A DNA stretch of 64,000 nt, taken from positions 1 through 64,000 of the forward strand of contig CAWKHF010000014.1 of the NCBI GenBank assembly GCA_963849325.1, in the 5' to 3' direction. The notes under the pieces were generated by a model. The model did no database searches. It was not told where the DNA came from and saw only the letters and a program-made list of their open reading frames with translations. The stretch is from an uncultured Planctomycetota bacterium. GTDB taxonomy: Bacteria; Planctomycetota; Planctomycetia; Gemmatales; Gemmataceae. The translations under genes and the position numbers were made by a program. Shown here in pieces: positions 9,723 through 32,965 of the stretch (within the stretch, counting starts at the first letter, position 1; each line of letters starts with the position of its first letter).

Positions 9723-11003
9723 GGTAGCCGACTCTTGAAAGCGCTCCATCAACTCCCGTAGCCGGGGCAAGCCGGCGAGGATGGCCGGCGATGCGGGTCC
9801 GAAGTCGAGCAGGCAGGCGATCTCCTGCACGCCGATGTCCACCAGCTTGCCCACCAACTCCACACAGTCGTCCGGCGTTCCCATGAGCGAACGCTGCCGC
9901 AGGAACTTCTCGAAGGCCCACCGGATCGCCTCGTCCAGCTGCGCCGGCGTCAGACGGTCCAGCGCGATGGGGACATTGCGGCTCTGGGCCAGCTTTTCCA
10001 GCAATTTCAGGTTCTTCTTGAGGTAATCGCAGTACGGCTCGTAGGCGTTGCGGCGCACGTCCTCGGGATCGTCGGCGAGGTAGGTGTGCAGGGTGACGGC
10101 GACGCGGCCGGCGTCGGGGTCCCAGCCGTGTTCGGCCCGCGCCCGGCGATAGAGGGCGACCTTCTCGGCCAGCTCTTCCACTCCCTGGTCGAACAGGTGG
10201 GTCAAGACGTTGGCGCCGATCTCGCCGGCCTGCTGGAAACTGCGCGGGCTGCCCGCCGCGGTGATCCACAGAGGAAGCCGCTTCTGCACGGGCGTCGGAT
10301 ACGTGCGGACGCGGATCTTCTGGCCGCAGCCGTCGGTCGCCTCGATGGACTGGCCGCTCCAGAGCTGCTCGACCACCCGGATGCTGTCGTACATCGTTTC
10401 ATAGCGGCGGGCGTAGCGGGCGGGATGCAGAGCGAAGTCTTCCGCGTTCCATCCCGGCGCGAACGACAACTCGATGCGGCCCTTCGAGAGGTTATCGACC
10501 ACGGCCCACTCCTCCGCCACGCGGAGAGGATCGTGCAAGGGCAGGACGACACTGCCGGCGCGCAGGCGAATCCGTCGCGTCTCACGGGCCAGGGCGGCGT
10601 GCAGCACGGCCGGGTTGGGGTAGAGACTGCCCATTGCCGTGAAGTGGCGCTCCGGCAGCCAGACGGCCGAGAAGCCGGCGGCGTCCGCATACCGCGCCGC
10701 CTCGATCACCAACTCATACTTCTCCGCCGCGGCCTCGCCCTCGTCACCGCCGAAGAAGAGCAGGCCGAACGCGAGGGTCTTACGGGTCGGTCGAGGAGAG
10801 GCAATCGTCGGGGCCGTCCCTTGCCGCCGGACGTACTCCAGACAATCCTCGCGGGTCGAGGCGGGCAGCACCTCGCGCCAGCCTGCCGGGATCGGCTTGT
10901 GGGCCGGCCACAAGCTCTGACGGCCGGACTCGCTGCGCAGCACCCGAAATCGGGAGGATTCATTCGTCAACACGGCATCCGTCATAACACTCTCCGCGCT
11001 CAT
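9690..11003 (-). CDS. MbtH-like domain fused to luciferase-like flavin monooxygenase (LLM, natural-product type)
   Basis: QSLWPAHKPIPAGW...CLEYV (MbtH), then FGLLFF, WLPERHF, LYPNPAV, LHDPLRVAEEWAVVDNLSKGR. ATGA overlap with the upstream gene. Confidence 0.85.
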   Translation of the reverse strand: MSAESVMTDAVLTNESSRFRVLRSESGRQSLWPAHKPIPAGWREVLPASTREDCLEYVRRQGTAPTIASPRPTRKTLAFGLLFFGGDEGEAAAEKYELVIEAARYADAAGFSAVWLPERHFTAMGSLYPNPAVLHAALARETRRIRLRAGSVVLPLHDPLRVAEEWAVVDNLSKGRIELSFAPGWNAEDFALHPARYARRYETMYDSIRVVEQLWSGQSIEATDGCGQKIRVRTYPTPVQKRLPLWITAAGSPRSFQQAGEIGANVLTHLFDQGVEELAEKVALYRRARAEHGWDPDAGRVAVTLHTYLADDPEDVRRNAYEPYCDYLKKNLKLLEKLAQSRNVPIALDRLTPAQLDEAIRWAFEKFLRQRSLMGTPDDCVELVGKLVDIGVQEIACLLDFGPASPAILAGLPRLRELMERFQESATAACGLACSSR

Positions 11004-14000
11004 GCGTAATACAGGGCGCACCACACCTGCAAGCCGGCTGCGACTTCGATCAACAAGACCGGAGCGCCGGCCGTGAGCCGGCCTTCCTGGCGGACCTTCT
11101 GAAACGCGAAGGCCAGGGACGACGTGAAGTAATCGCGCTCCGCGCCGACGTTGACCACCTTTTCGATCGACATCCCCAGACCCTCGGCGATGACGTTCTC
11201 CCAGCCTCCCCGGCCGCTGCGGCGGCACCAGCAGGCCAACGTCCGCCGGCGAAAGCGACTCGCGGGCAAGGAACTCGCGCACCACCCGGCACACGCATTC
11301 GACCTCCCGGTCTTCCAGAGCCGCGTCCCGATGGTGGAAGACAGCGGGCTTGTCTTCATGGACGCCGGTGGCGCTGACGATGGCGTCGAGGTGTTCGGGG
11401 AAGGCGCGGAAGCCGAAGGCCGCGAACCCTTCGCTGCCGCCGGACTCTTCGAGGACCAGCGCCGACGCCGCCTCGGCACGGGCAGCATGGCCCTCGGGCC
11501 GCAACTCGCGGCAAGGCTCGACCTCGGAGGCGATCACGAGGGCCCGCGAAAACTTCCGCGCCGCCATCAACTCGGCGGAGAGGAGGCAGGCGGTCAGCGT
11601 CCCGCCCGCGCCGTTGAGGACGTCGAAGGCCAGCGTCCGCCGTTCGCCGAGTTGCTTGTCGTCGTGGTTGATGGCCAGCTCGCCGGCGGCGATGCTGGCG
11701 ACGGACGGCTCGGCGAGAAACTCACTGCGGTACACGCCGGTGTGGATCACGACGTCGATCTCGTCGCGCGGCCGGGCCGAGCGTTCCAGGCAAGCCTCGC
11801 CGGCGCGGCGGACCAGGTCGATGGTCTCCGCCGGCCCGTCCGCCGACCGATCCACGGTGGCGATGCTTTCCAGACGCACGCGCCGCTGACAGTGGAAGTG
11901 CCGTAGCGGCTCGGCCGGCCGCGCCGGCGCTGCCTCTCGCGGCCGCGGCGGTTGTCGCAGTCGCTCCGGCAGATCATCGAAGGTGTACAGAGCGGTGCCG
12001 ACGGTCTGGCCCGAACCGCTCACCGCGAAGACGAGCCGTTCTCCGGCCGCGAAGCGCCCGGCCTGGATCGCCTCGTAGACGGCCAGGAAGTGCGTGTTGG
12101 TGGCGGTGTTGCCGCGCTCGGCGACGTTGTAGAGCGTGTTGCCGCGATGACAGAACGGCTGACCCAGGGCGCGATTGATCTCCTGCACCGCGCCGTCCAG
12201 CGTCGTCTCCGAAGTCTGGTGGATGACCAGCCCCTTGACCGTATCGAGGTCCCAGCGCCGGCGCCGCAACATCTCGGCGGCATGGCCGACGGCTTGCTTG
12301 ATGGTGACGACCGTGCTCGTCACCGAATCGGTGTGCATGACGGGTCCGCTGCCCGGTACGGCAGACAGCTTGGCCACGCACAGGTCATGGTATTTGCCCA
12401 GCGTGTATAGCTCGACCTCCTGGAAGCCGACGTCGGCGGTCGGCGCCCGGCCCAGCAACAGCGCCACCCCGGAATCGCCGAGGGTCAGGCACGGCAAACG
12501 CGGGTCCATGAAGCCCGCGATCTCCTGCTGGGCCGTCCGCATTAGGTGAGTGATGTATTCGCCGCTGACGATCAGGACGCGCCGGACGACGCCCTGGCGA
12601 AGAAGCGTGTCGGCCAGTAGGATCGCCGTGAAGGTGCCGGCGCAGGCGTTGCTGAGGTCGAAGGCCACGGCGTTGACCAGGCCGAAGCGGCGAGCGATGC
12701 GGGCGGCGGTCGCCGGCTCCAGCGAGAAACGATACGGGCCGTCATAGCGAGAGATGTTGCAGCAGATCAGCAAATCGATTTCGTCGGCGCGCACACGCCG
12801 CTCGCCGCAGACACTCGGCGGCGGCCTTCTCGGCCAGGTCGAGAGAGAATTCCGTATCGCCGGCGACGCGGCGGCTGCGGATACCGGTCAGTCGCTCCAG
12901 CGGGAACTCGATCTTGTTGCGGCAGTCGCGCAATACCTGTTCGGTCGTAACCGACTTTTCCGGTAGATAAACGCCGATACTCTCTACCAGAGCACCGGCT
13001 CGCTGGGTGTCGGAAATAGGGACCAGGGGCTCGGAAGCAGGGACGAGGGACGAGGGACGAGGGACTAGGGAAGGAACTGGCTCCCTGTCTTCCCTATTCC
13101 CTAGTCCCTGGTCCCTAGTCCCTGTTTCGAGGGCCGCGGCCAGTTCGGCGATGGTCTGATGGCGGAACAGCATTTCCGGCGTCACGGACAAGCCTTGCTC
13201 GCGGGCCAAGGCCGACACCTCCAGCGTCTGCGTCGAGGCACCGCCCAGCTCGAAGAAATGATCGTGGATGCCGACGCGCTCCACTTTCAAGACACGCGAC
13301 CAGATGCGCGCCAGTTGATGTTCCAACTCCATCCGTGGGGCACCGGAAGACGTTTCGGCCTCTCCGTTCGATGCGCCCACCGTCGCCGGATCGGGTAATC
13401 GTGTTCGGTCCAGCTTGCCCGTGGTGCCCAGGGGGAAGGCGTCGAGCGTCACGACGGCGGCCGGCAACATGCAGCGCGGCAGTCGTTCGCGGAGATGGGC
13501 GCGGACGCCCGGTAGGGAGAAAGCGTTCCCCTTGCGCGGCACCACGTAAGCGGCCAGGCGCGGCGCGCTGCCGTTGTCTTTCCACACGACCACCGCCGCG
13601 TCGAGGACGTCAGGGTGACGCCGAAGGACTTCCTGAATCTCCTCCAGCTCGATGCGATGTCCGCGGATTTTCACCTGATGATCGGCACGGCCGAGGAATT
13701 CCAACTCGCCCTCCGCCGTCCAGCGGACCACGTCGCCGCTGCGGTACAGGACCGCCTCGTCGGCCTGGTCGAACGGATTGGGGAGGAAGCGCTCGGCGGA
13801 CAGGTCGGGCCGGTTAAGATAGCCCAGGGCCACGCCTGGCCCAGCGAGGTACAACTCTCCGGCCACACCGACCGGCACGGGCCGAAGATCGCCGTCCAGC
13901 ACATAGACACGAGCATTGGCGATCGGCCGGCCGATGGTCGGCGGTCGTCCTCCGGGCACACATTCGGCGAGGGTGGCCCAGACCGTCACCTCGGTCGGGC

Positions 14001-16315
14001 CATAGGCGTTGAAGAAGCGCCGACCGGGCGCCCAGGTACAGACCAACTCGGCCGAGCACGCTTCGCCCGCCACAATCAGCGTCCGCAGGGCCGGCAGAGG
14101 TTCGGCCGGCACCATCACCAGGACTGAGGGCGGCAAGGTGACGTTGGTGATTCGTTCCTGGCGCAGCATCTCCCATAACGGCCGACCCGGCAGGAGGGCG
14201 GTTTGGCTGCCCAGCACCAGCGTCGCCCCGGACGCTAGGGCCATCGCCAGCTCGAAGACAGAGGCATCGAAACTGAACGAGGCGAACTGGAGCACGCGAT
14301 CCGCGGGGCCGGTTGCGAAGGACTTTTGCTGTGCCGCCCACAGGTTACACAGACCACGATGGCGCAGCACCACGCCCTTGGGCTGCGCCGGTCGAGCCGG
14401 ACGTGTAAATAAGGTAAGCTCGCTCCTCTGCCGACAACGGCAGACCGAGGTCCGTATCGCCTCGTCCCTGGATCTCCGTCTCGGCTCGGTCGAGCAGCAC
14501 GACCGGCAGCGGCAGGGGCGATTCGGAAGCCAGGGTGATCGCCGCCGCCGGGCGGGCGTCGGCGAGGACACCCTCGCGTCTCTTGCCGGGGTCCGACGGG
14601 TCGAGGAACAGAAACGCCGCTCCCGCCTTCCACACCGCCAGCACCGACACGATCAGATCCGGGCCGCGCGGCAAGCTGATCGCCACCGTGTCTCCCGGCC
14701 GCACGCCCATCGTCCGCAGGTGACGCGCCAGCCGATTCGCCCGCCGATTCAACTCGTCATAGGAGAGCGTGACGCCCTCGAAGGACACGGCCGGCGCCGC
14801 GGGTGTCTTCTTGACCTGCTGCTCGAACAGTTCGTGGAAGCAACCCGAGGGATAAGGGGTCTCCGTCCGATTCCAGTCCCCCAGGATTTGTTGTTTCGCG
14901 CCGGCCGACAGAACCTCCGCCTCGCTCAGCGGCGCGTCGGGAGAGGCGGTCAGCGATTCCAGCAGCGTATCGAAGTGCCCCACCCAGCGCCGGATCGTGG
15001 TGGCGTCGAACAGGTCCGAATTGTAGCGGAAGCTGGCGACGAGCTTCTCGCCGAACTCGAAAACGATGAGTGTCAGATCGAACGGAGCGCCGCGCTGTTC
15101 CATCAGCAGCGTCTCCACGGGCAACCCTTGTCCGGCCGTCTCACCGGAGGCAGCGAGGTCGCGCGGCTTGTCCCAGACGAACATCGCCTGGAAGATCGGC
15201 GGACGGGCCGGATCGCGTTTCACGTGCAGTTGTTTGACCAGCAGACCGAACGGGTAAGCCGAATGCTCCAGGGTCTGGTGTACCTGGTCGCGCGTCTCTT
15301 CCAGCAGCCGGCGGAAAGAGTGATCCGAAGCGAACGAGGTCCGCACGACTACCTGGTTGAGGAAGTAGCCGACCACCCGCTCCCATTCGGAGCGTTCGCG
15401 GCCGGCCACCGGAGTGCCGACCAGGATGTCGTGCTGGCCGCCGAGCCGGTGCAGCAGAAGCTGGAAAACGGCCAGCAGGGCCATGAAGCGCGTGGCGCCG
15501 TGTTCGTCGGCCAGAGAGCGCAGCTTGCGGACGACCTCGGCATTCAAGGTCCAGGAATGGGCGGTGCCGTTGTAGGTCTGGACGGGCGGACGGGGCCGAT
15601 CCGTCGGTAGTTCCAGCGCCGGCAGCTCGCCGGCAAGGAGGTTATGCCAGTATCGTTGCGCCTGCCGGCCACGCTCGCTGTACGCCTGCACGGTCTCCCA
15701 GCGGACGAAATCGGCGAATCGCGCCGACGTTGGCGGCAGTCGTGCGGCTCGGCCGGCACGCAGGTCGAGGTAAAGCTGCCGCAGTTCCTGGATGAGCAGG
15801 TCGGCGGACCACAGGTCGGCGATGATGTGATGGAACGTCATCAGGAGCACGAATTCCGCCGGCGCGCGGCGAAACAGCTCGATGCGCAGGCACGGCGCCC
15901 GGCCGAGGTCGAACGGTACGTCCGCCTGCCGGCGGGCCGTTTCTATCAGGCGCTCCTCGCTCCACGACGAGGCATCGGTCACGGGGATGTCGAGGGGAAC
16001 TTCCCTCTCCACCTGCTGCATCGGTTTGTGATCGCGCGCGAGGAAGCGGGTCCGCAGGGCGGGATGGCGATCCACCAAAGCCCGGCAAGCGCGGCGGAGG
16101 ACGGCCGCGTCAACCGCGGCGGGGATGCGGGCGGCGTAGAGGAAGTTGTAGGCGGGACTGGCCGGCGCCAACTGGTGCAAAAACCACAACGAGGCCTGGC
16201 CATGCGAGAGCGGCACCGGATCCTCGGAGCCGCCCGGCTGCAGGCCGAGCAGGTGTTTCACCAGTTCCTGCTTTTCCTCGACAGGCAAGGCGTGCAGTAT
16301 CGATCGATCGATCAT
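11000..16315 (-). CDS. NRPS C-A-PCP fused to two OleA/KAS III-like domains (frameshifts ~14390, ~12795, ~11200)
   Basis: C: HHIIADLWS. A: YTSGSTG..KG, FDASV, NAYGPTE, YRSGD, GRADHQVKIRGHRIEL, GKLDR. PCP: FFELGGAST. Thiolase-fold domains: DLSNACAG/HQTS/GNT and FDVLNGAGG. Confidence 0.85.
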
Positions 16316-16361
16316 CGCTTGTCCTCTCCGTTCCGTGCTGCTCCGCAAAGCCGCAAGCGGC

Positions 16362-19300
16362 TTACTCCAAAAGCGATTCCAGAAGTCCGTCGAGTTTTTC
16401 CTCGGGAAGCTGGTCTACGTTCTCCGAGGTAAGGCCCGCCGGCGGTCGCGGTCCCGTCGGGCGCTCGTCGGGCTTTTCGCTCAGCGCCGCCGCCGCCCGG
16501 TCCCGAATCTGGCCCAGGCTCAGCCCACGGAGGAAATCGACCACGGACAGGGACAGCCCCAGGTGGTCCTCGATCCGGTTGCGCAGCTGAATGCCCGTCA
16601 GGGAATCGAGTCCGAATGCCTGCAACGGTTTGTCCACGTCGGACGCGGAGACGTCCAGGCCGAGGACGTTGCGCAGCTGTCGCCGTAGGTACTCCTCAAT
16701 CAGCCGGCGCCGCTCCGAGGGAGGGGCCGACAGGATCGCCTTGCGGTCGAGGTGCCTCGTCTTTTCCGTGCCGTTGACGCTGGCAAGCTCCGGCGCCGGT
16801 GTTCCCGGAACGTAGCGCTGGCCGCCCCGATAAGCCACCACCCGCTGCTCGTCGGAGTGGCGGAGGGTCTGATACAAGCATTCCACCTGTTCGGCGGCGG
16901 ATTGATTCGGATCGAGGTCGATGAGACCCATCGATCCGTCGGCTCGCGGAGGGAAGAGCGATTGCCACTCCGCGGAAGACACCTCCGCTGTCTCCCTCCC
17001 CGGGAGGCAAGGAGCCGCGCCGCGCGTGACGACCCACGTCCCGGACAGTGAGTCGTTCGTGCAGACACGGGAAGGGTCATGCTGCCGGCAACTGCAAGGA
17101 GGTCTGGCGAGTGCGCCTGCCCCGTCCGTGAAGTCCACCAGGTAGATCGCCGCTCTCGGGTCGGAGGGCCGGATTGCCTCGGTGATGCAGGAATCGCCAG
17201 GGGCGAGACGAACAACCGTGCCTCCATCCGCCTTCAACCTCGCGGCCAGGGCGTCCGCCAGGTTCAGCCGGTCCCCGGCCAGGATCCAGGTCGTCGAGGT
17301 CCGGGCCGGCCCCGTGGACCCGTTTCCGATGGGACTGATACCGTTCTTTCGGAACGTGGGCTTCGCTGCTGCTGACAGGCTGGTGTCATTGCGAGCCAGG
17401 ATGACTACCTGGTCGGGGTCGGGCAATTGCGCATCGGCGGCGGGAAGGGCCGCGACGTTCCGCAAAACCTTCGTCGGCAAGCAGGCGTCCCCAGTCCGCG
17501 GGCGGCAGCAACGGGTATTGGGGCCGCAGCTCCAGGTCGGCGAATTTCCACCATCCCTCGGTCAGGCCGAAGATAAGGTCCAGCAAGCGCCGCGGCCCCG
17601 TCCCTTCGAGCAGGACCAGGACACCGCCGGGAGCCAGCAGACGACGCGCCGTGCGGACGCTGCTTCGCAGGTCCGGGGTGGCGTGCAGCACGTTGGCTGC
17701 CAGGACCACGTCGAATTGGCCGTCCGCGAAGCCCTGCGGTCCCGGAGCTTTTTCCAGGTTGAACGTGCGGTACTGGACGAAGGGGAACGCCTCGAACTTG
17801 GCGGAGGCCTGGGCGACGAACAGCCGCGATACGTCGGTGAAGACGTACTCGACCCGATCCGGCGGCAGGGCCGGCAGGACGTGCGCCGTGGTGCCGCCCG
17901 TGCCGCCGCCGACCTCCAGAATGTGGACGGGGCGATGGTCGGCGAGGCGCTCGATCAGGCGAGACAGCGAGCCGACCACCAGGTCGTTATAGAAGCGCGC
18001 CACCGGAGATTCCCGATACAGCCGCTCCGTCCAGGAGGCGGCCTCGTCGCCGAACAGAACGTCGAGCGGATCGGCCTCGCCGCGCAGGACGCGGTGCATC
18101 CGCGTGGCGCAGCGATGGGCCAACCGCAAGTCCGCCTCGAAAGTCGGATGACGGCCGAGCAGGTCGCGGTGCCAATCGCCAACGTCCCCCGCAGCGGGCA
18201 TGCGGATCACGCGCCAGCCGGTCTCCGTGCGGGCGAGCCAGCCGTCCTCCGCCGCCATCTGCAACAGCCGGCCGAGAAGCCGGTGGTAAGAGGGAATCAC
18301 TTTCAGCCGTCCGGCCAGTTCGTCGTCGCACACCTCGTCGCCGGGTCGCGGGGTCCAGCCGAGACGGCGCAGCGTGTCCACGACGTAGGCACCGGCCAAG
18401 CGATCAAATTCCTCTCTCAAGGGTATGAATTGTTCGATCCGATGCTTGGCTCGCAGCGGGGGAACGAGCGCAGCGGCGTCGGCGAGAGTCTCGAACCCCG
18501 TTGCTCCGCGGGGCAAGTGCTGGCGCCAGTTGGAACAGGGTCTCCAGTGGAGGCTTTCGCCAGTCCCACGGGAAGGTTTGGCCACGGCGGCAACAGGCGG
18601 CCGAGTGGGGGCGATGGCATCGACCCAGTAACGGAAGCGCTCGAAGGGGTAGGTCGGCAAATCGACGCGCGGGCGATGGGGCCGGCCATCCATCTGCTCC
18701 CAGCTCACGTTTGCTCCGTCCGCGTACAGACGGCCAAGGGCCGCGAGCATCTCTGCCTGATCGCTGCCTCCTCGCCGTAGCGACGACCGCCAGACTGTAC
18801 CCTCCATCGCCTCCAGGCAGGCCGGGCCGAGCCGAGAGAGGACGGCGTCGGGTCCGACCTCGACGAAGTGCGTGATACCGGCCTTGTGGAGCGTGCGGAT
18901 GCCGGCGGCGAACTGCACCGGCCGGCGGGCGTGCTCCGCCCAGTATTCCGGCGCGGGGATGGCGTCGAAAAAGGCGCCGGTGACGTTGGAGACGAGGGGG
19001 ATGGACGGCGGGCGGTGCGACATTCGCGCGGCCAACTCGCGCAGTCCCGGCAACGTCGGCTCGATCAGGGACGAATGGAAGGCGCGGCGGACGTGCAGCA
19101 GGCGGGTCTCGACTCCCTGGGCCGCTAATTCCTCGCGCAACGCCGTCGCCTCCGCGGCGTATCCGGCGACGACGATGCTGTCCGGGCCGTTGACCGCGGC
19201 GACGTCCGAGACGTCCGCCCCATCGCCCGACATGATTTCGTACCACATCCAGCGGCGCGAAGCACACCAGCATGGCGCCTTCGGGACAGTCCTGCATGAG

Positions 19301-22300
19301 CCGCCCGCGCCGGACGATCAGCTCCAGGGCGCTCTCCAGCGGCAACACGCCGGCCACGCATGCCGCCACGTACTCTCCGACGCTGTGGCCCAGCAGCGCG
19401 GCCGGCTGGACGCCCCATGCCCGCCACGTCTGCGCCAGGCGCGTATTCCACGGCGAAGAGGGCCGGCTGGGAGACATCGGTCTGCTCCAACCGTTCCACG
19501 TCGCGCAGAAGGTCCGGCAGGTTTTTCATGCCGAGGGCATCGAGGATGTCGGCGCAGCGATCCAGCGTGCGGCGATAGGTGAGGCACGATTCGTACAGCT
19601 CGCGCCCCATGCCGGCGTACTGCGCGCCCTGGCCCGTGAACAGGAACGCCACCCGGCCCGTCCAGCTCGCGCGCGGCCTGTCCTTCCTGGCAGGCGGGGT
19701 GATGGCCCGTCTCGGCCCAGGCGGCGAGGGCCGTGGACAAATCCTGAACCCGTGGCGCCGATCACGGCGAGCCGATACTCGAAGTGACATCGTTCTCGGC
19801 TGGCGGCGGCGCAAACGTCCTCCACCGCGACGTCGGGGTGGTCGCGCAGCCATCCGGCGAAACGGCGCGCCAGCTCGCGCAGCGCCGTCTTACTTTTGGC
19901 CGACAGCGGCAGAAGATGACAAGGTGACAAGGTGACAAGGTGACAAGGTGAACGGAGAACTGCCGCGGTTGCGGCCTCTCTGTTTCTCGTGTGTCCCTGG
20001 CTCTCTTGCGACAAGGTCACCTTGTCACCTTGTCTCCTTGTCACCTTGTCATCTTCGGGGGCTTGAGCGACGAGGACGTGAGCGTTGGTGCCGCCGAAGC
20101 CAAAGGAACTGACGGCGGCCAGCCGCGGACGTTGCTCGTTGGGCCAGGGGGTTAGCTCGCGGGGAATGTGGAAGCGCGTGCCCGCGAGTCCGATGCGCGG
20201 GTTGAGATTTTCCAGGTGCAGGTGCGGGGCGATCTGGCCGTGATGGACCTGCAAGACGGCCTTGATCAGACCGGCGATGCCCGCCGCCGCTTCCAGATGG
20301 CCGAGGTTCGTCTTGACCGAAGACAGGGCGCAGGGCACGGTCGCGGAACCCAGGGCGGCTTGCAGAGCGTCGAACTCGATCGGGTCGCCCAGAGAGGTGC
20401 CGGTGCCGTGGGCCTCGATGCAAGACACGTCGTCGGGGGAACGGCCGGCGAGCCGGAGCACGCGACGGATTAGCTCGGTCTGCCGTGCGCCGTTGGGGGC
20501 GGTGATGCCGTTGCTCTTGCCGTCCTGATTGACGGCCGACGCCTCCACAACCGCGAGGATGCGATCGCCGTCGCGCACGGCCGCCGACAGCGGCTTGAGG
20601 ACGACGACACCGCAGCCCTCGCCGCGGACGTAACCGTCGGCGGCGGCGTCGAACGTCTTGCACAGGCCGGCCGACGACAACATGCCGCCGTGCGACAGTA
20701 CCTCGGTCAGATCCGGCGTGAGGATCAGATTGACGCCGCCCACCAGGGCCAACTCGCACTCGCCCAGCCGCAAGCTCTGACAGGCCAGGTGGATCGCCAC
20801 CAGCGCCGAAGAGCAGGCCGTATCGACGGTCACGCTCGGGCCGTGCAGGTCGAGATGATAGGACAGGCGATGCGCGGCCATGCTGGCCGCATTGCCGACA
20901 CCCGCGTAACCGTCGGAGGCGCAGCCGTGCGCCAGCAGCAGCCGACTGTAATCGTTTGTCGAGGCACCCACGAACACGCCCACGGGACGGCCGGCCAGGC
21001 CGTCCGCGGGCAAGCCGGCGTGCTCCAGCGCCTCCCAGGCCGTTTCCAGCAGCAAACGATGTTGCGGATCGATAAAGACGGCTTCTCGGGGAGCGATGCC
21101 GAAAAACGGAGCGTCGAAACAGGCGACGTCCGCCAGGTATCCGCCTCGCGTCGTGGCCGCGCCCTCGGCGGCGCGCTCCCAGCGACCTTCGGGCAACTCG
21201 TCAATCACACAGCGGCCATCTCGGAAGACCTGCCAGACCTCGTCCGGCCCGTGGGCCGTGGGGAAACGACAGCCGATGCCGACGACCGCGATCGACTGGC
21301 GCCTCGCCTCGCAGGCAGGAGCCTCCAGCTTCACGTCAGCCACGGAGTCGCGGGCCAGGACGCCGACGAGGGCGCCGACGGTCGGAGCGCTGTACAACAG
21401 AGTCGGCGATAGGGGACGGCCCAGCCATTCTTGCAGGTCGGAAGCCAGGGCCGCCAGCGCCAGGGAACCCATGCCATAGGCGGACCAGGGCTTGTCCGCG
21501 TCGATCTGATCGGGCGGCAGTTTCAAGAGCCGGGCCATCCGAGCCACGAGCCAGTCGCGCAGCGCCTCGGAAGAAGTGGCGAGTGGCGAGTGGCGAGTGG
21601 CGAGGGAAGAAGAAGCCTCTTCACTAGCCACTGACCACTGGCCACTAGCCACTTCTTCCGAGGCACGTTCGATAGCGTTGAGTTCTCCGTCTCGGAAGCG
21701 ACGGGCACATTCCTGGCGCTGCACTTTGCCGCTAGAAGCCCGCGGGATCGAGCCGACCTTGACCAGCAGCAAGTGGTGCAACTCCAACTCGAACAACTCG
21801 GCGAGGCGTTCGCGGATGCGGGCGAATAACCCCTCGCCTCCGCCGGGCTTGTAATCGCGCGCCACCTCGAACACGAGCACCAGTTCGGTGCCGGACTCTC
21901 CCTCGACCGCGAAGGAGGCGCCGGTCTGTCCGCCCAGTTCGGGACAGGCGTCCGCGGCCGCCTCCTCCAGGTCGTGCGGGTAGAAGTTACGGCCCCGGCA
22001 GATGATCAGGTCCTTGCACCGGCCGCTGATGAAAAGCTCGCCTTCGTGGAAGAAGCCCATGTCGCCGGTGCGCAGGAAGGAGAGTTCCGGGTCTGAAGGA
22101 CACCGAGCCTGAAACGTCTGCGCCGATTCTTCCGGCCGATCCCAGTAACCGCGGCGCGACGCTGGGACCGGACACCCAGATTTCTCCGATTCGCCCCTCG
22201 GAAAGCGGTTCGGCGCTGGCCGGATCGACGATGCGCACGGTCAGGTCCGGCAACGGCCGACCGCAGCCGACCATCGGCTGTCCGTCGCCTTCCAGCTCGA

Positions 22301-23385
22301 CTCGTTTCTCGCCCAGGGCCGACCGCGAGAACGAGCGGACGATCGGAGGCGCGGTCCGGTCGCCGCCCGTCACCATGAGCGTCGCCTCGGCCAGACCGTA
22401 GCAGGGGAAGAAGGTCTCGCGGCGGAAGCCATACGGGGCGAAGACCTCGGCGAAGCGGTCCAGCGCTTCCGCGGCCACCGGCTCGGCGCCGACGTAGGCC
22501 ACCTTCCAGCAGCTCAGGTCCAGACCCTGACATTTCTCCGGCGTCATGCGCTGGACGCAGTGGCGGAAGGCGAAGGTCGGCCCGCCGCTGACGTAGGCCC
22601 GCCGCGCGCTGATCGTCCGCAGCCAGAACATCGGCTCCTGAACGAAAGCGGCTGGCGGAAGGACCGTCATGGGCAGGCCGGTGAAGACTGTCTGCAACAG
22701 GTTGCCGATCAGCCCCATGTCGTGAAAAGCCGGCAGCCAACACACGGTGTCCGTCTGGGGGGTCAACCCCAGGATTTCCCGCATACGGGTCAGGTTGTGG
22801 AGCAAGGCGGCGTGGGTCAGCATCACGCCCTTGGGCAGCCCGGTCGAACCGGAGGTGTACTGGAGGACGGCCAGGTCGTCGCGTCCGATGCTCGGCACGG
22901 GACACGTCCCGGCGTCGCTCTCCGCGATCGCGGAGGTGTCGAGCCAGTCGAGGGCTTGCAGCCGAGGCACTCGCGCCGTCAGCCGCCCCAGGTCGCGGAG
23001 GGTTTTCGTGTTCGTCAGGGCCAGGACGGACCCCGAATTCTCGGCCACGCTTTGCAGGCGCACGTCCGAGCGGTTGGCCCGCGGCGGGTAGAGGGGAACG
23101 GCGATCACGCCGGCATACAGACAGCCGAACAGGCCGACCAGGAAATCCAGACCCGGAGGGTAGCAGAGCAACGCCCTCTGCCCGGCCCGGCCTGCGGAGC
23201 ACGGAGGCGACGGCACGGGCTTGCCGGTCGAGCTGGCGGAAGGAGAGGCGGACCTCCTCGGCGCGGCCGTCCGCGAGGAAGGCATAGCCGTGGACGCTGC
23301 CTTCTTCGGCCCGAGCCTGGAGCGAATGAATCAGGCTTTCGTTGGTCGAGCCGTTTATGAGGGCGATGCGCGACATAGCAATCAT
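16362..23385 (-). CDS. type I PKS: FAAL-ACP-KS-AT-MT-(KR remnant)-ACP (several frameshifts)
   Basis: [119 protein letters not shown]. Confidence 0.88.
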
Positions 23386-23812: not shown

Positions 23813-24126
23813 TACAATCGAAATCTTTAGCGCAGTTGGTGAAAAGCTCACTGCGACTCCGCTACGTTTTGTCATTCTACGGCTCGGGACCGGGAAAGCA
23901 AGGGGATTGTCGTTCCGCGCCCGCTATCCCGCTATCCGAATCCCCAGCTCGACTGGGAATCGAGAGTTCGCATGGACTCGACCCCGATTGCCCGTTTCGC
24001 CGCAAGTTGACGGGTGCCAAAGGGCTGCCTACAATTCGGGTGCGATGGCTGCCGCTTCGCCTCGGGAGAACGCTAAGCCGCAAGCGGCTTGGCGGAGGCG
24101 GCACGTCTCGAAGAAAGGGAGTTCCC

Positions 24127-25065: not shown

Positions 25066-25151
25066 GCTTCGACCCCAAGCCGCTTGCGGCTTAGCGTTGG
25101 CCGCCCTACGCGAAGCCGCAAGCGGCTCGGATTCTCGGGGAGTGCCTCGCC

Positions 25152-26338: not shown

Positions 26339-28482
26339 ATGTCCCAGCCCACGCGGAACAGCCTCGAACTCTGTTCGTCCGTCGAACCGCCTGACACCCT
26401 CTTCCGTCTGGCGCGTCATCGCGCCGGGGAGCACCCGGACGTTCGCGGTTACACCTTCCTCGCCGACGGCGAGACGGAAGAGCAGATCCTGACCTACGGC
26501 GACCTGGACGCGCGGGCGCGGGCGATCGCCGCCCGCATTCAGTCCGTCTGCCGTCCGGGCGAACACGTCCTGCTGCTGTACGGCCCGGGCCTGGATTACA
26601 TCGTCGCCCTGTTCGCCTGCCAGTACGCCGGCGTCGTCCCTGTCCCCGCCTATCCGCCGGATCCCCTGCGAGCGGCGCGGACGCTGTCGCGGCTGCAGGC
26701 CATCGTGACCGACTGCGGAGCGAGCCTGGCGCTGGGCAGCGACGAACACCTCGGCTGGCTCGGCGGCGCCCTGGCCGGCGATTTGGGGCTACGGCTGGCG
26801 CTCTCGACGGAACGATGGCCGGAGTGGACGGGATTGCCGTGGACCGCGCCGGAAACGCACCCCGACCAGGTCGCCCTGTTGCAGTACACGTCCGGCTCGA
26901 CGGCCACGCCGCGCGGCGTCATGGTGACGCACCGCAACTTGTGGTTTCAATTTCAGGGGATGCAGGTCGCCGATAGCGACGACTCGGCCGGCGTGAGCTG
27001 GCTGCCGCTGTATCACGACCTGGGCCTGATCGGCGGGGCCTTGACGCCGATCTACTTCCGTCGTCCAGTGACGCTGATGTCGCCGTTAGCCTTCGTCCAG
27101 CGACCTCTGCGCTGGCTGCATGCCATCTCGCGCTACCCGCGCTCCCATCACGGGCGCCCCCAACTTCGCCTTGGACCTGTGCGTGAGTAAGTTCTCTCCC
27201 ACCGAGGCGGAAGGGCCTCGACCTGTCTTGCCTGCGCGTCCTCCTGACCGGGGCCGAGCCAGTGCGGTCCGATACGCTCGACCGCTTCACCGCAACCTTC
27301 GCTCCGTATGGCCTCTCCTCGAGGGTTTGGTGTCCCTGTTTTGGCCTGGCGGAAGCGACCCTCGGCGTGACGGCCGCCACCGACGCCGCGCAGGTGCGAC
27401 GACTGGACTTCGCGCTCCGCGAACTGGAACGCAACCGAGCCGTGCCCGTAACGGGCACCGGCGAGCCATGTCGTCGCCTGGTTGGCTGCGGCCGGCCCCT
27501 GGAAGGCAGCGAGGTACTCGTCGTCGATCCGCTCCGCCGCACGGCCCTGCCGGATGGACAGGTCGGCGAGATTTGGGTACACGGACCCAACGTGGCACGC
27601 GGCTACTGGAACAAGCCGGAGGAGACCGAAGCTCTCTTCCACGCCCGCCTGGCCGACGACGGCGAACGGGGGCCATACCTGCGAACCGGCGACCTGGGCT
27701 TTTTCCACGACGGGCAACTGTACCTGACGGGACGGATGAAAGAGACGATGGTGTTCTGGGGCCGCAATGTCTACCCTCAGGACGTGGAGAGGACGGTCGG
27801 CTCCTGTCATCCGTCCTTGAAGCAAAACGGCGGCGCCGCCTTCGCCGTCGAGGTGGACGGCCGGGAGCAGTTGGCCGTGGTGCAGGAGGTCGTTCGCCCC
27901 GGCAAGGTCGATCTCAACGCCGTTGCCGACGCCGTCCGCCAGGCGGTCCAGGCGGAGCACCTCGTTCCTCTGCATGTCCTCGTCCTCATCAAGCCGGGCA
28001 CCCTGCCCAAGACCTCCAGCGGCAAGACGCAGCGCAACCTGGTGCGCGAGCGGTTCCTGGCCGGCGAACTGGCCGTGGTACGACGGTGGCACTCCGCGGT
28101 TGAGGGAGAGGCGGCGCCCGCCGCGATAGAAGGGCGAGCGTTCAGCCGCGAGGAGATTCGCTCCTGGCTGGTGGCTCGCGTCGCCCGGCACTGCCAGGTG
28201 GCCGAGAGCGAGATCGATCCCGGCCTGGCCATCAACAGCTACGTCCTGGATTCGGTCAGCGCCGTTACGATCGCCACGGAGCTTCAGGACTGGCTGGGCC
28301 GAACCATCTCGCCGACGGTACTCTACGATAGCCCTTCGCTCTCGGTCCTGGCCGGACGACTCGCCGACCCGCCCACGCAAGTCCCGGTGGTTGCGGTCGA
28401 GAAGCTGACACCCGGCGAGCTGGACGACGTCCTGATGCGGTTGCTCGGGGATTCGGGCGAGCCGCTATTTCCCAACCACTAG
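26339..28482 (+). CDS. stand-alone fatty acyl-AMP ligase-ACP didomain (frameshifts ~27135, ~27215)
   Basis: [57 protein letters not shown]. Confidence 0.88.
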
Positions 28483-31616: not shown

Positions 31617-31620
31617 ACTC

Positions 31621-31742
31621 AAAAGAGCCTCACGCAAAGGCGCAAAGAACGCAAAGGTAAAGAAATAGAAGGACAAAAACGGACTTCCCTTTCGTATCTC
31701 ATCTTTCTTTGCGTTCTTTGCGCCTTTGCGTGAGGCTCTTTT
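31621..31742. repeat. MITE-like inverted repeat
   Basis: AAAAGAGCCTCACGCAAAGGCGCAAAGAACGCAAAG ... perfect reverse complement. Confidence 0.8.
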
Positions 31743-31885
31743 GGGTGGAACCACTTAACCATAGCCCCCACTTTGCCACGGGTAAACTGCCTTTCCGCAG
31801 CAGCCATCAAGAGCGCCGGTCCTATCGCCGATAACATCTTTGCAGTGTTTGCAGGCTTTCGGATTTTTCCCGGCCTTGCCGGAGG

Positions 31886-32965
31886 ATGGCCCCCGTGCGA
31901 AGCGCATTGCGGCTGTGCTGGTGTGTGCTCGGACTGCTGCCGGCCGGCTGCGGCTGTCTGCCGCCGATGAAAGTCAACACGCAGGGCGACGTCAACGTCT
32001 CGGTGCGCACGCCGGTGACGGCGAAGGTGGACGCCACGCTCAACACCATCTCGGACCCGGGACCGCTCCAGGAAATCTGCTTTGCCGCCCTCGTGTCCGC
32101 CGGGAAGCGAGAAGATCGCGGTCCTGGACGTGGATGGTCTGCTGCTGAATCTCAATCGAGTCGGCGCGTACTCGCTGGGTGAGAACCCGGTGGCGGCATT
32201 CCAGGAGAAGTTGATGGCGGCGGCGGCGGACCCCGCCGTCAAGGCCGTCGTCGTCCGCATCAACAGTCCCGGCGGCAGCGTGGCGGCGGCCGAGCTGATG
32301 GGCCGCTCCCTGGCCGATTTCCGCCAGCACTGCGGTAAGCCGGTCGTCGCCTGCCTGCTCGACATGGGCGCCGGCGGCGGCTACTACCTCGCCAGCGGTT
32401 GCGATCAAGTCTTTGCCATCCCTGCCGCGGTGGTCGGCGGTATTGGCGTCATGTTGAATCTCTATTATCTCGAAATTGCCATGGAGCAGTGGAATGTCTT
32501 CCCCGCCGCCATCAAATCCGGCGAGCACACCGACATGGGCAACCCGGCACGCAAAATGACGGCCGAGGAGAAGGCCATGCTGACGGCGATGGCCCGAGAA
32601 TATCACGAGAATTTCAAGCAAGTCGTCCTGCGCCACCGCCCGCGCCTGAAGGCGGAGGCGGGCGTTTTCGATGGCCGCGTCATGTCGGCGTCGAAGGCGG
32701 CCGAGGTCGGTCTGATCGACGGTGTCGGCTTCTTACCGGAGGCCATCGAAAGGGCCCGGCAGCTGGCGAACGCCGGCCCCGTCACCGCGGTGATGTATTC
32801 GCGCGCAGCAGTCCCGCCCGGTCGCTGTACGAGGTCGCACCCAATCGGCCGGCCCAGGCCCTCAATATGCCCTGGAGCGTTCCCGGCATGGACCGCAGCC
32901 GAATGCCGCTGTTTCTGTACCTGTGGCAGGTCGAGCCGACGCTGCTGCGAGTCGCGCCCGATTGA
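31886..32965 (+). CDS. S49/SppA-family peptidase homologue, lipoprotein, probably inactive (frameshifts ~32085, ~32805)
   Basis: LLPAGC lipobox, VRINSPGGS, GGYYLA, FDGRV. The catalytic residues are substituted. Confidence 0.75.

What the first reader, a model, noticed from the sequence alone, without database searches (positions are those of the whole stretch)
28385..28460. Stand-alone FAAL-ACP carries the same C-terminal docking tail as the PKS
Seen: the PKS ends [18 protein letters not shown] (~16420-16365) and FAAL-ACP2 has VEKLTPGELDDVLMRLLGD. Both fit V-[DE]-x-L-x4-L-D-x-[LV]-L-x-x-L-L. The NRPS begins with a complementary helix, LHALPVEEKQELVKHLL. Inference: two acyl donors can dock on one NRPS. 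They either give alternative starters (with or without polyketide extension) or deliver both chains for the terminal condensation. This ties the divergent arm to the assembly line.
Basis: partly seen in the sequence, partly recalled or inferred. Interest (0 to 1): 0.7.

Follow-up and report, generated by a model that had tools for sequence, protein, structure and literature searches.

The report
Shared docking tail on FAAL-ACP
A stand-alone fatty-acid-activating carrier protein ends in the same kind of short docking helix as the neighbouring polyketide synthase, so it probably plugs into the same peptide synthetase, but binding itself was not tested.

Summary
Window 28396-28446 (+) encodes VEKLTPGELDDVLMRLL after the carrier domain of a stand-alone FAAL-ACP. 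Window 16418-16368 (-) encodes [17 protein letters not shown] at the PKS end. The NRPS starts at 16315 with a helix-kink-helix.

The tail is conserved in 21 FAAL-ACP orthologues, while the linker before it and the sequence after it vary. In three other Gemmataceae genomes the FAAL-ACP lies co-directionally in an array PKS, NRPS, MbtH-LLM, lipoprotein, FAAL-ACP. In a fourth the three genes are unlinked yet keep tails and N-helix.

The hydrophobic spacing matches published type-2-related (PAX-like) helical docking domains. The same class joins a second PKS to a second NRPS elsewhere in the genome.

So this is a new member of a known docking class. It most likely tethers a second acyl donor to the cluster's NRPS. 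Binding was not tested because the complex predictor was unavailable. Whether the donor is an alternative starter or a second chain stays open. The frame breaks in the window are assembly errors; rpoB is split too.

The parts
26339..28482 (+). Stand-alone FAAL-ACP2 gene (fatty acyl-AMP ligase fused to a carrier domain). It is read in three frames in this assembly because of two extra C bases, within the strings starting at 27131 and 27210.
   Evidence: Pfam AMP-binding, AMP-dom_DIP2-like and PP-binding. Best NCBIfam models are fatty acyl-AMP ligase families, all below their curated cut-offs. Intact orthologues are 705-722 aa. Frame breaks.
28165..28359 (+). Carrier (ACP) domain of FAAL-ACP2. 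The phosphopantetheine serine of the DS motif is at 28252-28254.
   Evidence: PP-binding covers residues 327-391 of the C-terminal fragment. Serine codon. The AF2 model gives the helices of a carrier fold (four helices plus one short). Foldseek top hits are ACPs, including the Pks13 N-terminal ACP.
28360..28395 (+). Variable linker between the ACP and the tail.
   Evidence: Length and sequence vary among 21 orthologues. Model residues 80-90 have pLDDT below 50.
28396..28446 (+). C-terminal docking tail of FAAL-ACP2, VEKLTPGELDDVLMRLL (the finding).
   Evidence: Column conservation in 21 orthologues: V1 20/21, L4 20/21, L9 21/21, D10 21/21, L13 20/21, L17 21/21. Predicted as a helix at residues 92-104 of the 114-residue model.
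16362..23385 (-). PKS with FAAL1-ACP-KS-AT-C-methyltransferase-ACP-tail. It is frame-broken in this assembly and the start is approximate.
   Evidence: Pfam on the fragments. The intact orthologue in G046 is 2222 aa with the same order of domains.
16368..16418 (-). C-terminal docking tail of the [20 protein letters not shown], followed by E and a stop.
   Evidence: Orthologous PKS tails in five genomes and in two more.
16247..16315 (-). N-terminal docking element of the NRPS (M1 to L23): helix 4-8, a break at A-L-P, helix 12-23.
   Evidence: L10, K15, L18, L22 and L23 are invariant in 9 aligned NRPS N-termini. AF2 secondary structure H4-8 and H12-23, pLDDT 67-76.
10990..16315 (-). NRPS with N-helix, C, A, PCP and a tandem KASIII-like pair. 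It is frame-broken in this assembly and the 3' end is approximate.
   Evidence: Pfam. The intact G046 orthologue is 1763 aa from its start codon: Condensation 32-483, AMP-binding 504-972, PP-binding 1001-1062, ACP_syn_III twice. The KASIII part matches window 11205-12797.
9735..11150 (-). MbtH-like protein fused to a luciferase-like monooxygenase. It is a conserved neighbour of the NRPS.
   Evidence: Pfam. tblastn against the G046 orthologue gives 56% identity.
31919..32956 (+). Homologue of the predicted lipoprotein that lies between the MbtH-LLM gene and FAAL-ACP2 in genus g25.
   Evidence: tblastn gives 54% identity over 242 residues. Gene order in G046, G045 and G044.

Best explanation
The last roughly 30 residues of FAAL-ACP2 form a C-terminal docking domain of the alpha-helical, type-2-related (PAX-like) kind. 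It consists of a short hydrophobic turn (V-x-x-L), an N-cap (T/S-P), and an amphipathic acidic helix (E-L-D-D-V-L-x-R-L-L), joined to the carrier domain by a disordered linker.

Its partner is most likely the helix-kink-helix at the N-terminus of the cluster's NRPS. That is the same element that receives the PKS tail. FAAL-ACP2 would activate a fatty acid, load it on its own carrier, and dock on the NRPS. It would then present the acyl thioester to the donor site of the C domain. This would give an N-acyl-aminoacyl intermediate that bypasses the PKS extension, i.e. an alternative starter supplied in trans.

Shown: the motif, its conservation, its class signature, and its genomic and phyletic link to this NRPS type. 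Inferred: physical binding, the acceptor site, and the purpose.
For: 1. Specificity.

2. Conservation. In 21 orthologues the tail core is nearly invariant, while the linker and post-tail vary in length and sequence.

3. Class signature. The tail hydrophobics at positions 1, 4, 9, 13 match the i, i+3, i+8, i+12 spacing quoted for PaxB, Bam_5925 and CurK C-terminal docking domains. NRPS L7, L10, L18 match the i, i+3, i+11 spacing quoted for PaxB, CurH and Bam_5924 N-terminal docking domains (passages of PMC11221535). PaxB's N-terminal domain is helix 3-8, a kink at P10, helix 11-24 (PMC8251938, section 5 part 1). The model here has helix 4-8, a break at A-L-P (9-11), helix 12-23.

4. The same pairing joins PKS to NRPS at translationally overlapping genes in the second cluster of this genome and in 8 relatives. 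Homologues whose carrier is fused to the C domain lack both helices: L095 and L103 and 11 of 56 loci.

5. Synteny. The order PKS, NRPS, MbtH-LLM, lipoprotein, FAAL-ACP2 is co-directional in G046, G045 and G044. In G016 the three genes are unlinked, yet each keeps its tail or N-helix.

6. Phyletic pattern. Stand-alone FAAL-ACP2 orthologues were found in 6 of 252 family genomes, and all 6 are among the 10 of 252 with the KASIII-ending NRPS.

7. Tail subtype. FAAL2 tails resemble window-type PKS tails (mean identity 0.48 over 105 pairs) more than second-cluster tails (0.32 over 147 pairs). They share V1 and L9 with the former, against I1 and V9 in the latter.

8. C-domain type. The NRPS C domain falls in a 43-row clade (SH-like 97) with 25 of 28 C domains fused directly behind ACP-type carriers. 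It lies apart from a second, 32-row clade that holds 24 of the 30 other fused C domains (most behind PCP-type carriers).

9. Dispensability. Four of the 10 genomes with the core cluster lack a detectable FAAL-ACP2. This fits an accessory starter better than an obligatory second substrate.

10. Precedents. Two alternative FAAL loading modules feed one line in puwainaphycin clusters (passages of PMC9016887). Docking elements link a FAAL-associated ACP to a downstream enzyme (passages of PMC7923214).
Against: No binding test of any kind was possible.

The class assignment rests on hydrophobic spacing and predicted secondary structure. phmmer of the N-helix found only one unrelated chain (E 1.3), and phmmer of the tail found nothing in the PDB.

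The tail helix has low model confidence, pLDDT about 50-58.

FAAL2 tails differ from PKS tails at two conserved positions: V or A instead of L at position 12, and R, Q, K, A or E instead of S or T at position 15. These could encode a different partner.

If both tails use one N-helix they compete, and no covariation between tails and N-helices was visible in the 6 to 9 genomes available.

The four genomes without FAAL-ACP2 are only 63-83% complete.

Related genomes are not independent, so the co-occurrence counts overstate support.

The tree is FastTree only; the IQ-TREE run did not finish.
Confidence: 0.45

Rival explanations
1. Both chains are used. FAAL-ACP2 docks on the same NRPS, but its acyl group goes to the tandem KASIII-like pair at the NRPS C-terminus. 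That pair joins it to, or transfers it onto, the PCP-bound N-acyl-aminoacyl intermediate and releases a two-tailed product.
For: The NRPS ends in one KASIII-like domain with the active-site cysteine context and a second without it, instead of a thioesterase.

FAAL-ACP didomains feeding a ketosynthase that joins two acyl chains are described for NocH/NocG (passages of PMC11837247).

FAAL-ACP2 lies downstream of the NRPS in the same array in three genomes.
Against: The KASIII pair is kept in 4 of 10 genomes that lack a detectable FAAL-ACP2.

The only docking-type helix on the NRPS is at the N-terminus. The PCP-KASIII linker is Ser/Pro-rich with no such motif.

The tail is of the class used for ACP-to-C hand-over elsewhere.
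Confidence: 0.2
2. The tail is a docking element but for another partner. That partner could be the second NRPS on contig C12 (cross-cluster priming), or a protein without a recognisable N-helix, such as the MbtH-LLM fusion or a KASIII surface.
For: A second NRPS with a related N-helix exists. Its PKS begins directly with a KS and no loading module was seen upstream.

FAAL2 tails have their own conserved residues at positions 12 and 15.

In G016 the FAAL-ACP2 gene is not linked to any cluster.
Against: In the genomes searched, seven of the same genus have the C12-type NRPS junction (tails read in six) but no FAAL-ACP2 orthologue.

The C12 NRPS N-helix already has a translationally coupled PKS tail.

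FAAL2 tails carry V1/L9 like window-type tails, not I1/V9.

Only two ORF starts in the genome carry the N-helix motif.
Confidence: 0.15
3. The tail has no inter-protein docking role. It could be a self-association or intramolecular element (for example packing on the FAAL C-terminal lobe), or an inherited remnant.
For: The helix is short and of low model confidence. No partner contact has been demonstrated.
Against: The core is strongly conserved, with free variation on both sides, in 21 orthologues down to about 50% identity.

The same motif sits on PKS ends exactly where a separate NRPS follows, and it is absent where carrier and C domain are fused.
Confidence: 0.07

Closest known systems
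PAX peptide NRPS docking domains (PaxA T1-CDD/PaxB NDD, PDB 7B2B; PaxB CDD/PaxC NDD, PDB 6TRP), grouped with type 2 / type-2-related docking domains (CurG/CurH, Bam_5925/Bam_5924)
   Same: Purely helical docking at a carrier-to-C-domain junction between separate proteins.

The C-terminal element has four hydrophobics at i, i+3, i+8, i+12. The N-terminal element of about 30 residues has helix, kink, helix and hydrophobics at i, i+3, i+11, followed by a flexible linker to the C domain (PMC11221535 passages; PMC8251938 section 5 part 1; PMC9113145 sections 7 and 13; compared).

Acidic tail, lysine/arginine-bearing N-helix.
   Different: No detectable sequence similarity to solved entries.

The first helix of the C-terminal element is reduced to about one turn in the window-type tails. 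The second-cluster tails keep a longer first helix.

The tail is separated from the carrier by a variable linker of 12 to about 35 residues, so it probably does not use carrier helix 4 as PaxA does.

The upstream partner is a PKS ACP or a FAAL-ACP, not an NRPS T domain.

The complex fold was not tested.
SLiM / beta-hairpin docking (type 3; EpoA-EpoB, TubB-TubC, Bamb_5917-Bamb_5915)
   Same: It is the best-known docking mode at PKS-ACP to NRPS-C junctions. One tail type can serve several partners (PMC9113145 section 14; PMC13324335 passages).
   Different: The NRPS here has only about 33 residues before the C domain and these are predicted helical. There is no 60-70 residue alpha-beta-beta-alpha-alpha domain. 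Beta-hairpin-type N-termini are seen in other loci of the survey (L016, L026, L037, L047) and look different.
Stand-alone FAAL-ACP didomains and FAAL plus ACP starter cassettes (HapA, NocH, AmbG; JamA/JamC; PuwC and PuwI alternative loading modules)
   Same: A fatty acyl-AMP ligase loads its own carrier, which hands the acyl group to a downstream megasynthase in trans (PMC11837247 passages).

Docking elements on a FAAL-associated ACP are reported (PMC7923214 passages).

Two alternative FAAL starters for one assembly line are reported (PMC9016887 passages).
   Different: Here the second donor would enter at the NRPS C domain, in parallel with a PKS that has its own FAAL-ACP loading module. The two entries would therefore differ by a whole PKS module, not only by chain length. 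None of this is experimentally shown.

Membership tests
Type-2-related / PAX-like alpha-helical docking domains (C-terminal element) | Four conserved hydrophobic residues spaced i, i+3, i+8, i+12 across a helix-turn-helix at the extreme C-terminus behind a carrier domain | tested here: met
   Spacing is quoted in PMC11221535: PaxB L3304/L3307/L3312/L3316, Bam_5925 I2625/L2628/L2633/L2637, CurK I2209/L2212/L2217/V2221. Tails here have positions 1, 4, 9, 13 as V/L/L/L: 20/21, 20/21, 21/21 and 20/21 in FAAL2; 5/5 each in window-type PKS; I/L(M)/V(I)/L in 7 second-cluster tails.
Type-2-related / PAX-like alpha-helical docking domains (N-terminal element) | An element of about 30 residues before the catalytic domain, with helix, kink, helix and aliphatic residues at i, i+3, i+11 | tested here: met
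   The window NRPS has L7, L10, L18. L10, K15, L18, L22 and L23 are invariant in 9 N-termini. The AF2 model has H4-8, a break at A9-L10-P11 and H12-23, then a coil to the C domain at about residue 34.
Type-2-related / PAX-like alpha-helical docking domains | The two elements form a specific helical bundle with micromolar or better affinity | not testable with these tools
Only single chains were folded.
Type-2-related / PAX-like alpha-helical docking domains | Detectable sequence relationship to structurally characterised members | tested here: not met
   phmmer against PDB sequences at E up to 10 gave, for the N-helix, one unrelated hit (HUWE1, E 1.3) and, for the tail, none. Such short elements rarely score, so this lowers the membership claim only slightly.
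Fatty acyl-AMP ligase (FAAL) | An adenylate-forming enzyme closer to FAAL than to acyl-CoA ligase models, coupled to a cognate carrier | tested here: inconclusive
   The best full-length NCBIfam models are fatty acyl-AMP ligase families (PRK05850, 420.6 bits; FadD32, 385.9 bits). These rank above acyl-CoA ligase models but all lie below their curated cut-offs. Pfam AMP-dom_DIP2-like and a fused PP-binding domain are present. The FAAL-specific insertion was not examined.
SLiM / beta-hairpin docking (type 3) | An N-terminal domain of about 60-70 residues with a central beta-hairpin before the C domain | tested here: not met
   Only 33 residues precede the C domain, and the model gives two helices and no strand.

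The most novel reading that the evidence does not exclude
This is a convergent docking node. One N-terminal docking element on a single-module NRPS is used by two different acyl carriers with matched tails, a PKS ACP and a stand-alone FAAL-ACP. Both chains would be brought to one enzyme. The C domain would N-acylate with the polyketide chain, and the terminal tandem KASIII-like pair would use the FAAL-ACP2 chain for a second acylation or a Claisen-type release, giving a two-tailed lipoamino acid in Gemmataceae.

In the boldest form the two single-helix tails together supply the two helices that one C-terminal docking domain supplies in PAX-type three-helix bundles.
Probability: 0.2. Interest if true: 0.7.

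Novelty: new member of a known kind. Interest (0 to 1): 0.42.

Why it matters
Docking elements decide which carrier talks to which enzyme in assembly lines, and they are used as portable parts in engineering.

This work gives a family of short, sequence-defined tail and N-helix pairs from Gemmataceae, a group with almost no characterised natural-product pathways. It includes two orthogonal-looking subtypes within one genome: V1/L9 with an E-L-L-K N-helix, against I1/V9 with an M-L-L-A-E N-helix.

If the stand-alone FAAL-ACP and the PKS really share one acceptor, the cluster is a simple natural case for studying competition or cooperation of two donors at one docking site. It would also predict two product series, or a two-tailed product.

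For annotation, the motif links an otherwise orphan FAAL-ACP to its assembly line even when the genes are unlinked, as in G016.

Tried and rejected
**Complex prediction.** The job was the NRPS N-helix plus C domain (alignment A2, residues 1-480) with the FAAL-ACP2 ACP-tail (alignment A3, residues 318-431). Searches found the queue full. No complex was folded, so there is no computational binding result either way. Single-chain folds give secondary structure only.

**PDB searches.** phmmer of the 40-residue N-helix and the 42-residue tail found nothing useful. Foldseek of the ACP-tail model returned only carrier domains and nothing for the tail.

**Metagenome scan.** It returned mostly generic FAAL loci at 37-52% identity. 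The closest orthologues (P0002-P0014, 51-73% identity to the ACP-tail part) could not be placed in context.

**Split-domain idea.** I asked whether genomes without FAAL-ACP2 have a longer, two-helix PKS tail. G055 and G264 keep the short single-helix tail, so this gives no support. In G049 and G050 the PKS tail was not found by the pattern, possibly because of frame errors.

**Charge covariation.** Comparing N-helices and tails by eye across 6-9 genomes showed only one suggestive pair, in G000 (N-helix R to Q, PKS tail E to K). That is too few events to use.

**Tree.** The IQ-TREE 'quick' run of C domains did not finish in 288 s. FastTree was used instead.

**Chance match.** A tail-like string inside the luciferase-like monooxygenase (LTPAQLDEAIRWAF) is internal to a folded domain and was rejected as a chance match.

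**Earlier notes.** An earlier-findings look-up returned nothing for this place.

**A-domain specificity** was not determined.
Full report
**What is in the window**

The window is the first 64 kb of contig C14 of an 8.16 Mb, 14-contig, 65% G+C genome that is 84.7% complete. Record titles of orthologous loci place the family in Gemmataceae, Planctomycetota.

On the minus strand, from about 23385 down to 8027, lies a biosynthetic cluster:
- a PKS with FAAL, ACP, KS, AT, C-methyltransferase and ACP;
- an NRPS with C, A, PCP and two KASIII-like domains;
- an MbtH-like protein fused to a luciferase-like monooxygenase;
- a sulfotransferase.

On the plus strand, at 26339-28482, lies a stand-alone FAAL-ACP (FAAL-ACP2).

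**Observation**

- The FAAL-ACP2 tail VEKLTPGELDDVLMRLL is at 28396-28446.
- The PKS tail [17 protein letters not shown] is at 16418-16368, followed by E and a stop.
- The NRPS begins at 16315 with MIDRSILHALPVEEKQELVKHLL.

A looser version adds one more place, the C-terminus of a second PKS on contig C12. The pattern was derived from the two tails, so the count shows specificity rather than an independent probability. All three hits lie behind carrier domains, 1-11 residues from a stop.

**Frame breaks are assembly errors**

Codon-position G+C and stop-to-stop ORFs show the PKS, the NRPS and FAAL-ACP2 changing frame inside domains. In FAAL-ACP2 the two breaks are single extra C bases in short C runs, within the strings starting at 27131 and 27210. 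Orthologues are intact proteins of 705-722 residues.

The essential rpoB gene of the same genome is also spread over three frames; its conserved domain 6 sits in an open frame of only 612 residues. Other few-contig, low-completeness relatives (G002, G007) show frame breaks at the same junctions. I therefore read the breaks as consensus indels, not gene decay.

**The tail is conserved**

Twenty-one FAAL-ACP2 sequences were compared: the window, 15 database proteins, and 5 from relatives' genomes, down to about 50% identity. The 17-residue core keeps V1 (20/21), L4 (20/21), L9 (21/21), D10 (21/21), L13 (20/21), L16 (17/21) and L17 (21/21). The 12 to about 35 residues between carrier and tail, and everything after the tail, vary freely in length and sequence.

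An AF2 model of the last 114 residues gives a carrier fold. It has a linker with pLDDT below 50 (residues 80-90), a one-turn helix, and a helix at 92-104 with pLDDT about 50-58. That is what is expected of an element that folds on binding. Foldseek matched only carrier domains.

**The class is known**

[quoted passage not shown] It is four hydrophobic residues at i, i+3, i+8, i+12. The partner N-terminal domains (CurH, Bam_5924, PaxB) have aliphatics at i, i+3, i+11.

The tails here have V/I, L, L/V, L at positions 1, 4, 9, 13. The NRPS has L7, L10, L18, and L10, K15, L18, L22, L23 are invariant in nine aligned N-termini.

PMC8251938 (section 5, part 1) describes the PaxB N-terminal domain as helix 3-8, a kink at P10, and helix 11-24. 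The AF2 model of the window NRPS N-terminus gives helix 4-8, a break at A9-L10-P11, helix 12-23, and then coil to the C domain.

The review PMC9113145 (sections 7, 13, 14) lists the known classes. The beta-hairpin class is excluded, because only 33 residues precede the C domain and none is predicted as a strand.

Sequence searches of the two short elements against PDB sequences found nothing related. Membership therefore rests on pattern and predicted secondary structure, not on homology or a docked model.

**The class is general in this family**

On contig C12 a second PKS ends in a related tail (core IEDLPGEQVDALLSALL). It overlaps the start of a second NRPS that begins with a related N-helix, LSLTEKRMLLAELL. 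The same junction occurs in eight genomes of the same genus (G002 and G007 with frame breaks). Tails were extracted from six of these plus G000.

Where the carrier is fused to the C domain, both helices are missing. This holds for L095 and L103 and for 11 of 56 loci with an ACP hit. That is the behaviour expected of docking elements.

Similar N-terminal motifs (L-S/T-x-x-x-K/R-R-x-L-L) precede C domains in several unrelated metagenomic loci. The genome has three such tails but only two such N-helices.

**FAAL-ACP2 belongs to this assembly line**

In G046, G045 and G044 (another genus) the genes lie co-directionally in this order: PKS, NRPS, MbtH-LLM, a predicted lipoprotein, FAAL-ACP2, then a desaturase-like membrane protein. 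In G046 and G045 all frames are intact. In G044 the NRPS changes frame near its 5' end. The tails are VGELSESELDSLLVTLL on the PKS and VDSLSEGELDQVLAQLL on FAAL-ACP2, and the N-helix is LSVESKRELLKTLL. The window keeps the lipoprotein homologue at 31919-32956.

In G016 the PKS, the NRPS and FAAL-ACP2 sit on three contigs among unrelated genes, yet each keeps its tail or N-helix.

Across 252 genomes of the family:
- The KASIII-ending NRPS was found in 10.
- A stand-alone FAAL-ACP2 orthologue was found in 6, all among those 10. A seventh hit, in G077, is a FAAL inside a PKS frame.
- In the other four (G049, G050, G055, G264; 63-83% complete) the best FAAL matches are the loading domains of the adjacent PKS. 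No tailed stand-alone form was found.

Related genomes are not independent, so these counts are descriptive.

**Which N-helix?**

FAAL2 tails are closer to window-type PKS tails (mean identity 0.48, 105 pairs) than to C12-type tails (0.32, 147 pairs). They share V1 and L9 with the former, against I1 and V/I9 in the latter. Genomes of the same genus that have only the C12-type junction have no FAAL-ACP2. This favours the window NRPS as partner.

FAAL2 tails also have their own conserved residues: V/A at position 12, and mostly R (also Q, K, A, E) at position 15. What these mean is unknown.

**Purpose**

Two readings remain.

*Alternative starter.* The window-type C domain sits in a clade (43 rows, SH-like 97) with 25 of 28 C domains fused directly behind ACP-type carriers, many of them FAAL-ACP-C proteins. 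It lies apart from a second, 32-row clade that holds 24 of the 30 other fused C domains, most of them behind PCP-type carriers (FastTree; five duplicate rows dropped; IQ-TREE unfinished). FAAL-ACP2 is dispensable in some genomes with the core cluster. Two alternative FAAL loading modules on one line are reported for puwainaphycins (PMC9016887 passages).

*Second chain.* The NRPS ends in a tandem KASIII-like pair instead of a thioesterase. FAAL-ACP didomains feeding a chain-joining ketosynthase are reported for NocH/NocG (PMC11837247 passages). However, the PCP-KASIII linker carries no docking-type helix, and the pair persists without FAAL-ACP2.

I give the alternative-starter reading about twice the weight of the second-chain reading.

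**What is missing**

The decisive computation, a multimer model with controls, could not be run.

**Verdict**

The finding is real and biologically meaningful. It is a new member of a known docking class, on a known kind of protein, in an unexplored bacterial family. The unusual point is that two donors may share one acceptor site, and that remains an inference.

Noticed in passing
window 10990-12890 (-), and L120:16318-18309: The NRPS ends in a tandem of two KASIII (FabH)-like domains instead of a thioesterase. The first has the active-site cysteine context and the second lacks it. This architecture occurs in 10 of 252 family genomes. Its reaction is unknown.
   Followed up: partly
window 9735-11150 (-): An MbtH-like domain is fused to a luciferase-like monooxygenase directly after the NRPS. 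The fusion is conserved in G046, G045, G044 and G016.
   Followed up: partly
genome contig C1:334484-338629 and the whole window: rpoB is split over three reading frames, and many long genes in the window change frame. The assembly carries frequent single-base indels, so ORF-based gene calls in this genome are unreliable.
   Followed up: yes
window 31617-31746: A 40-nt inverted repeat, 98% complementary with a 50-nt loop, lies just after the MacB-like permease gene. Both arms translate to the same peptide on opposite strands.
   Followed up: no
window 16348-16363 and 24075-24090, with near-copies at 25072-25130: The 16-nt palindrome AAGCCGCAAGCGGCTT sits in intergenic spots, including the PKS-NRPS spacer. 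There are 18 exact copies in the genome, far above chance, so it looks like a REP-like or terminator-like element.
   Followed up: partly
genome contig C12:552769-563681: A second hybrid cluster has a PKS that starts directly with a KS and an NRPS that ends with a thioesterase-like region. No loading module was seen upstream. It is conserved in the genus.
   Followed up: partly
L121 (G046:C23:30927-31991) and L118 (G045:C3:396041-397030): In genus g25 a membrane fatty-acid-desaturase-like gene overlaps the end of FAAL-ACP2. The arrangement is reminiscent, from recall, of the JamA/JamB/JamC starter cassette. The window has no such neighbour; the best homologues lie on other contigs at 33-40% identity.
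   Followed up: partly
L158: An 8.6 kb contig (64% G+C) is titled as an uncultured Alcaligenaceae MAG. It carries an ACP-tail homologue (46% identity) at its very end. Its neighbours do not look like a FAAL, so mis-binning is possible.
   Followed up: no
L019, L035, L058, L059: Other stand-alone FAAL-ACP proteins in metagenomes end in different C-terminal extensions, for example with L-S-E-E-D-A or L-S-Q-E-Q-I-E-L-L. Docking-like tails of several kinds may therefore be common on this protein type.
   Followed up: no
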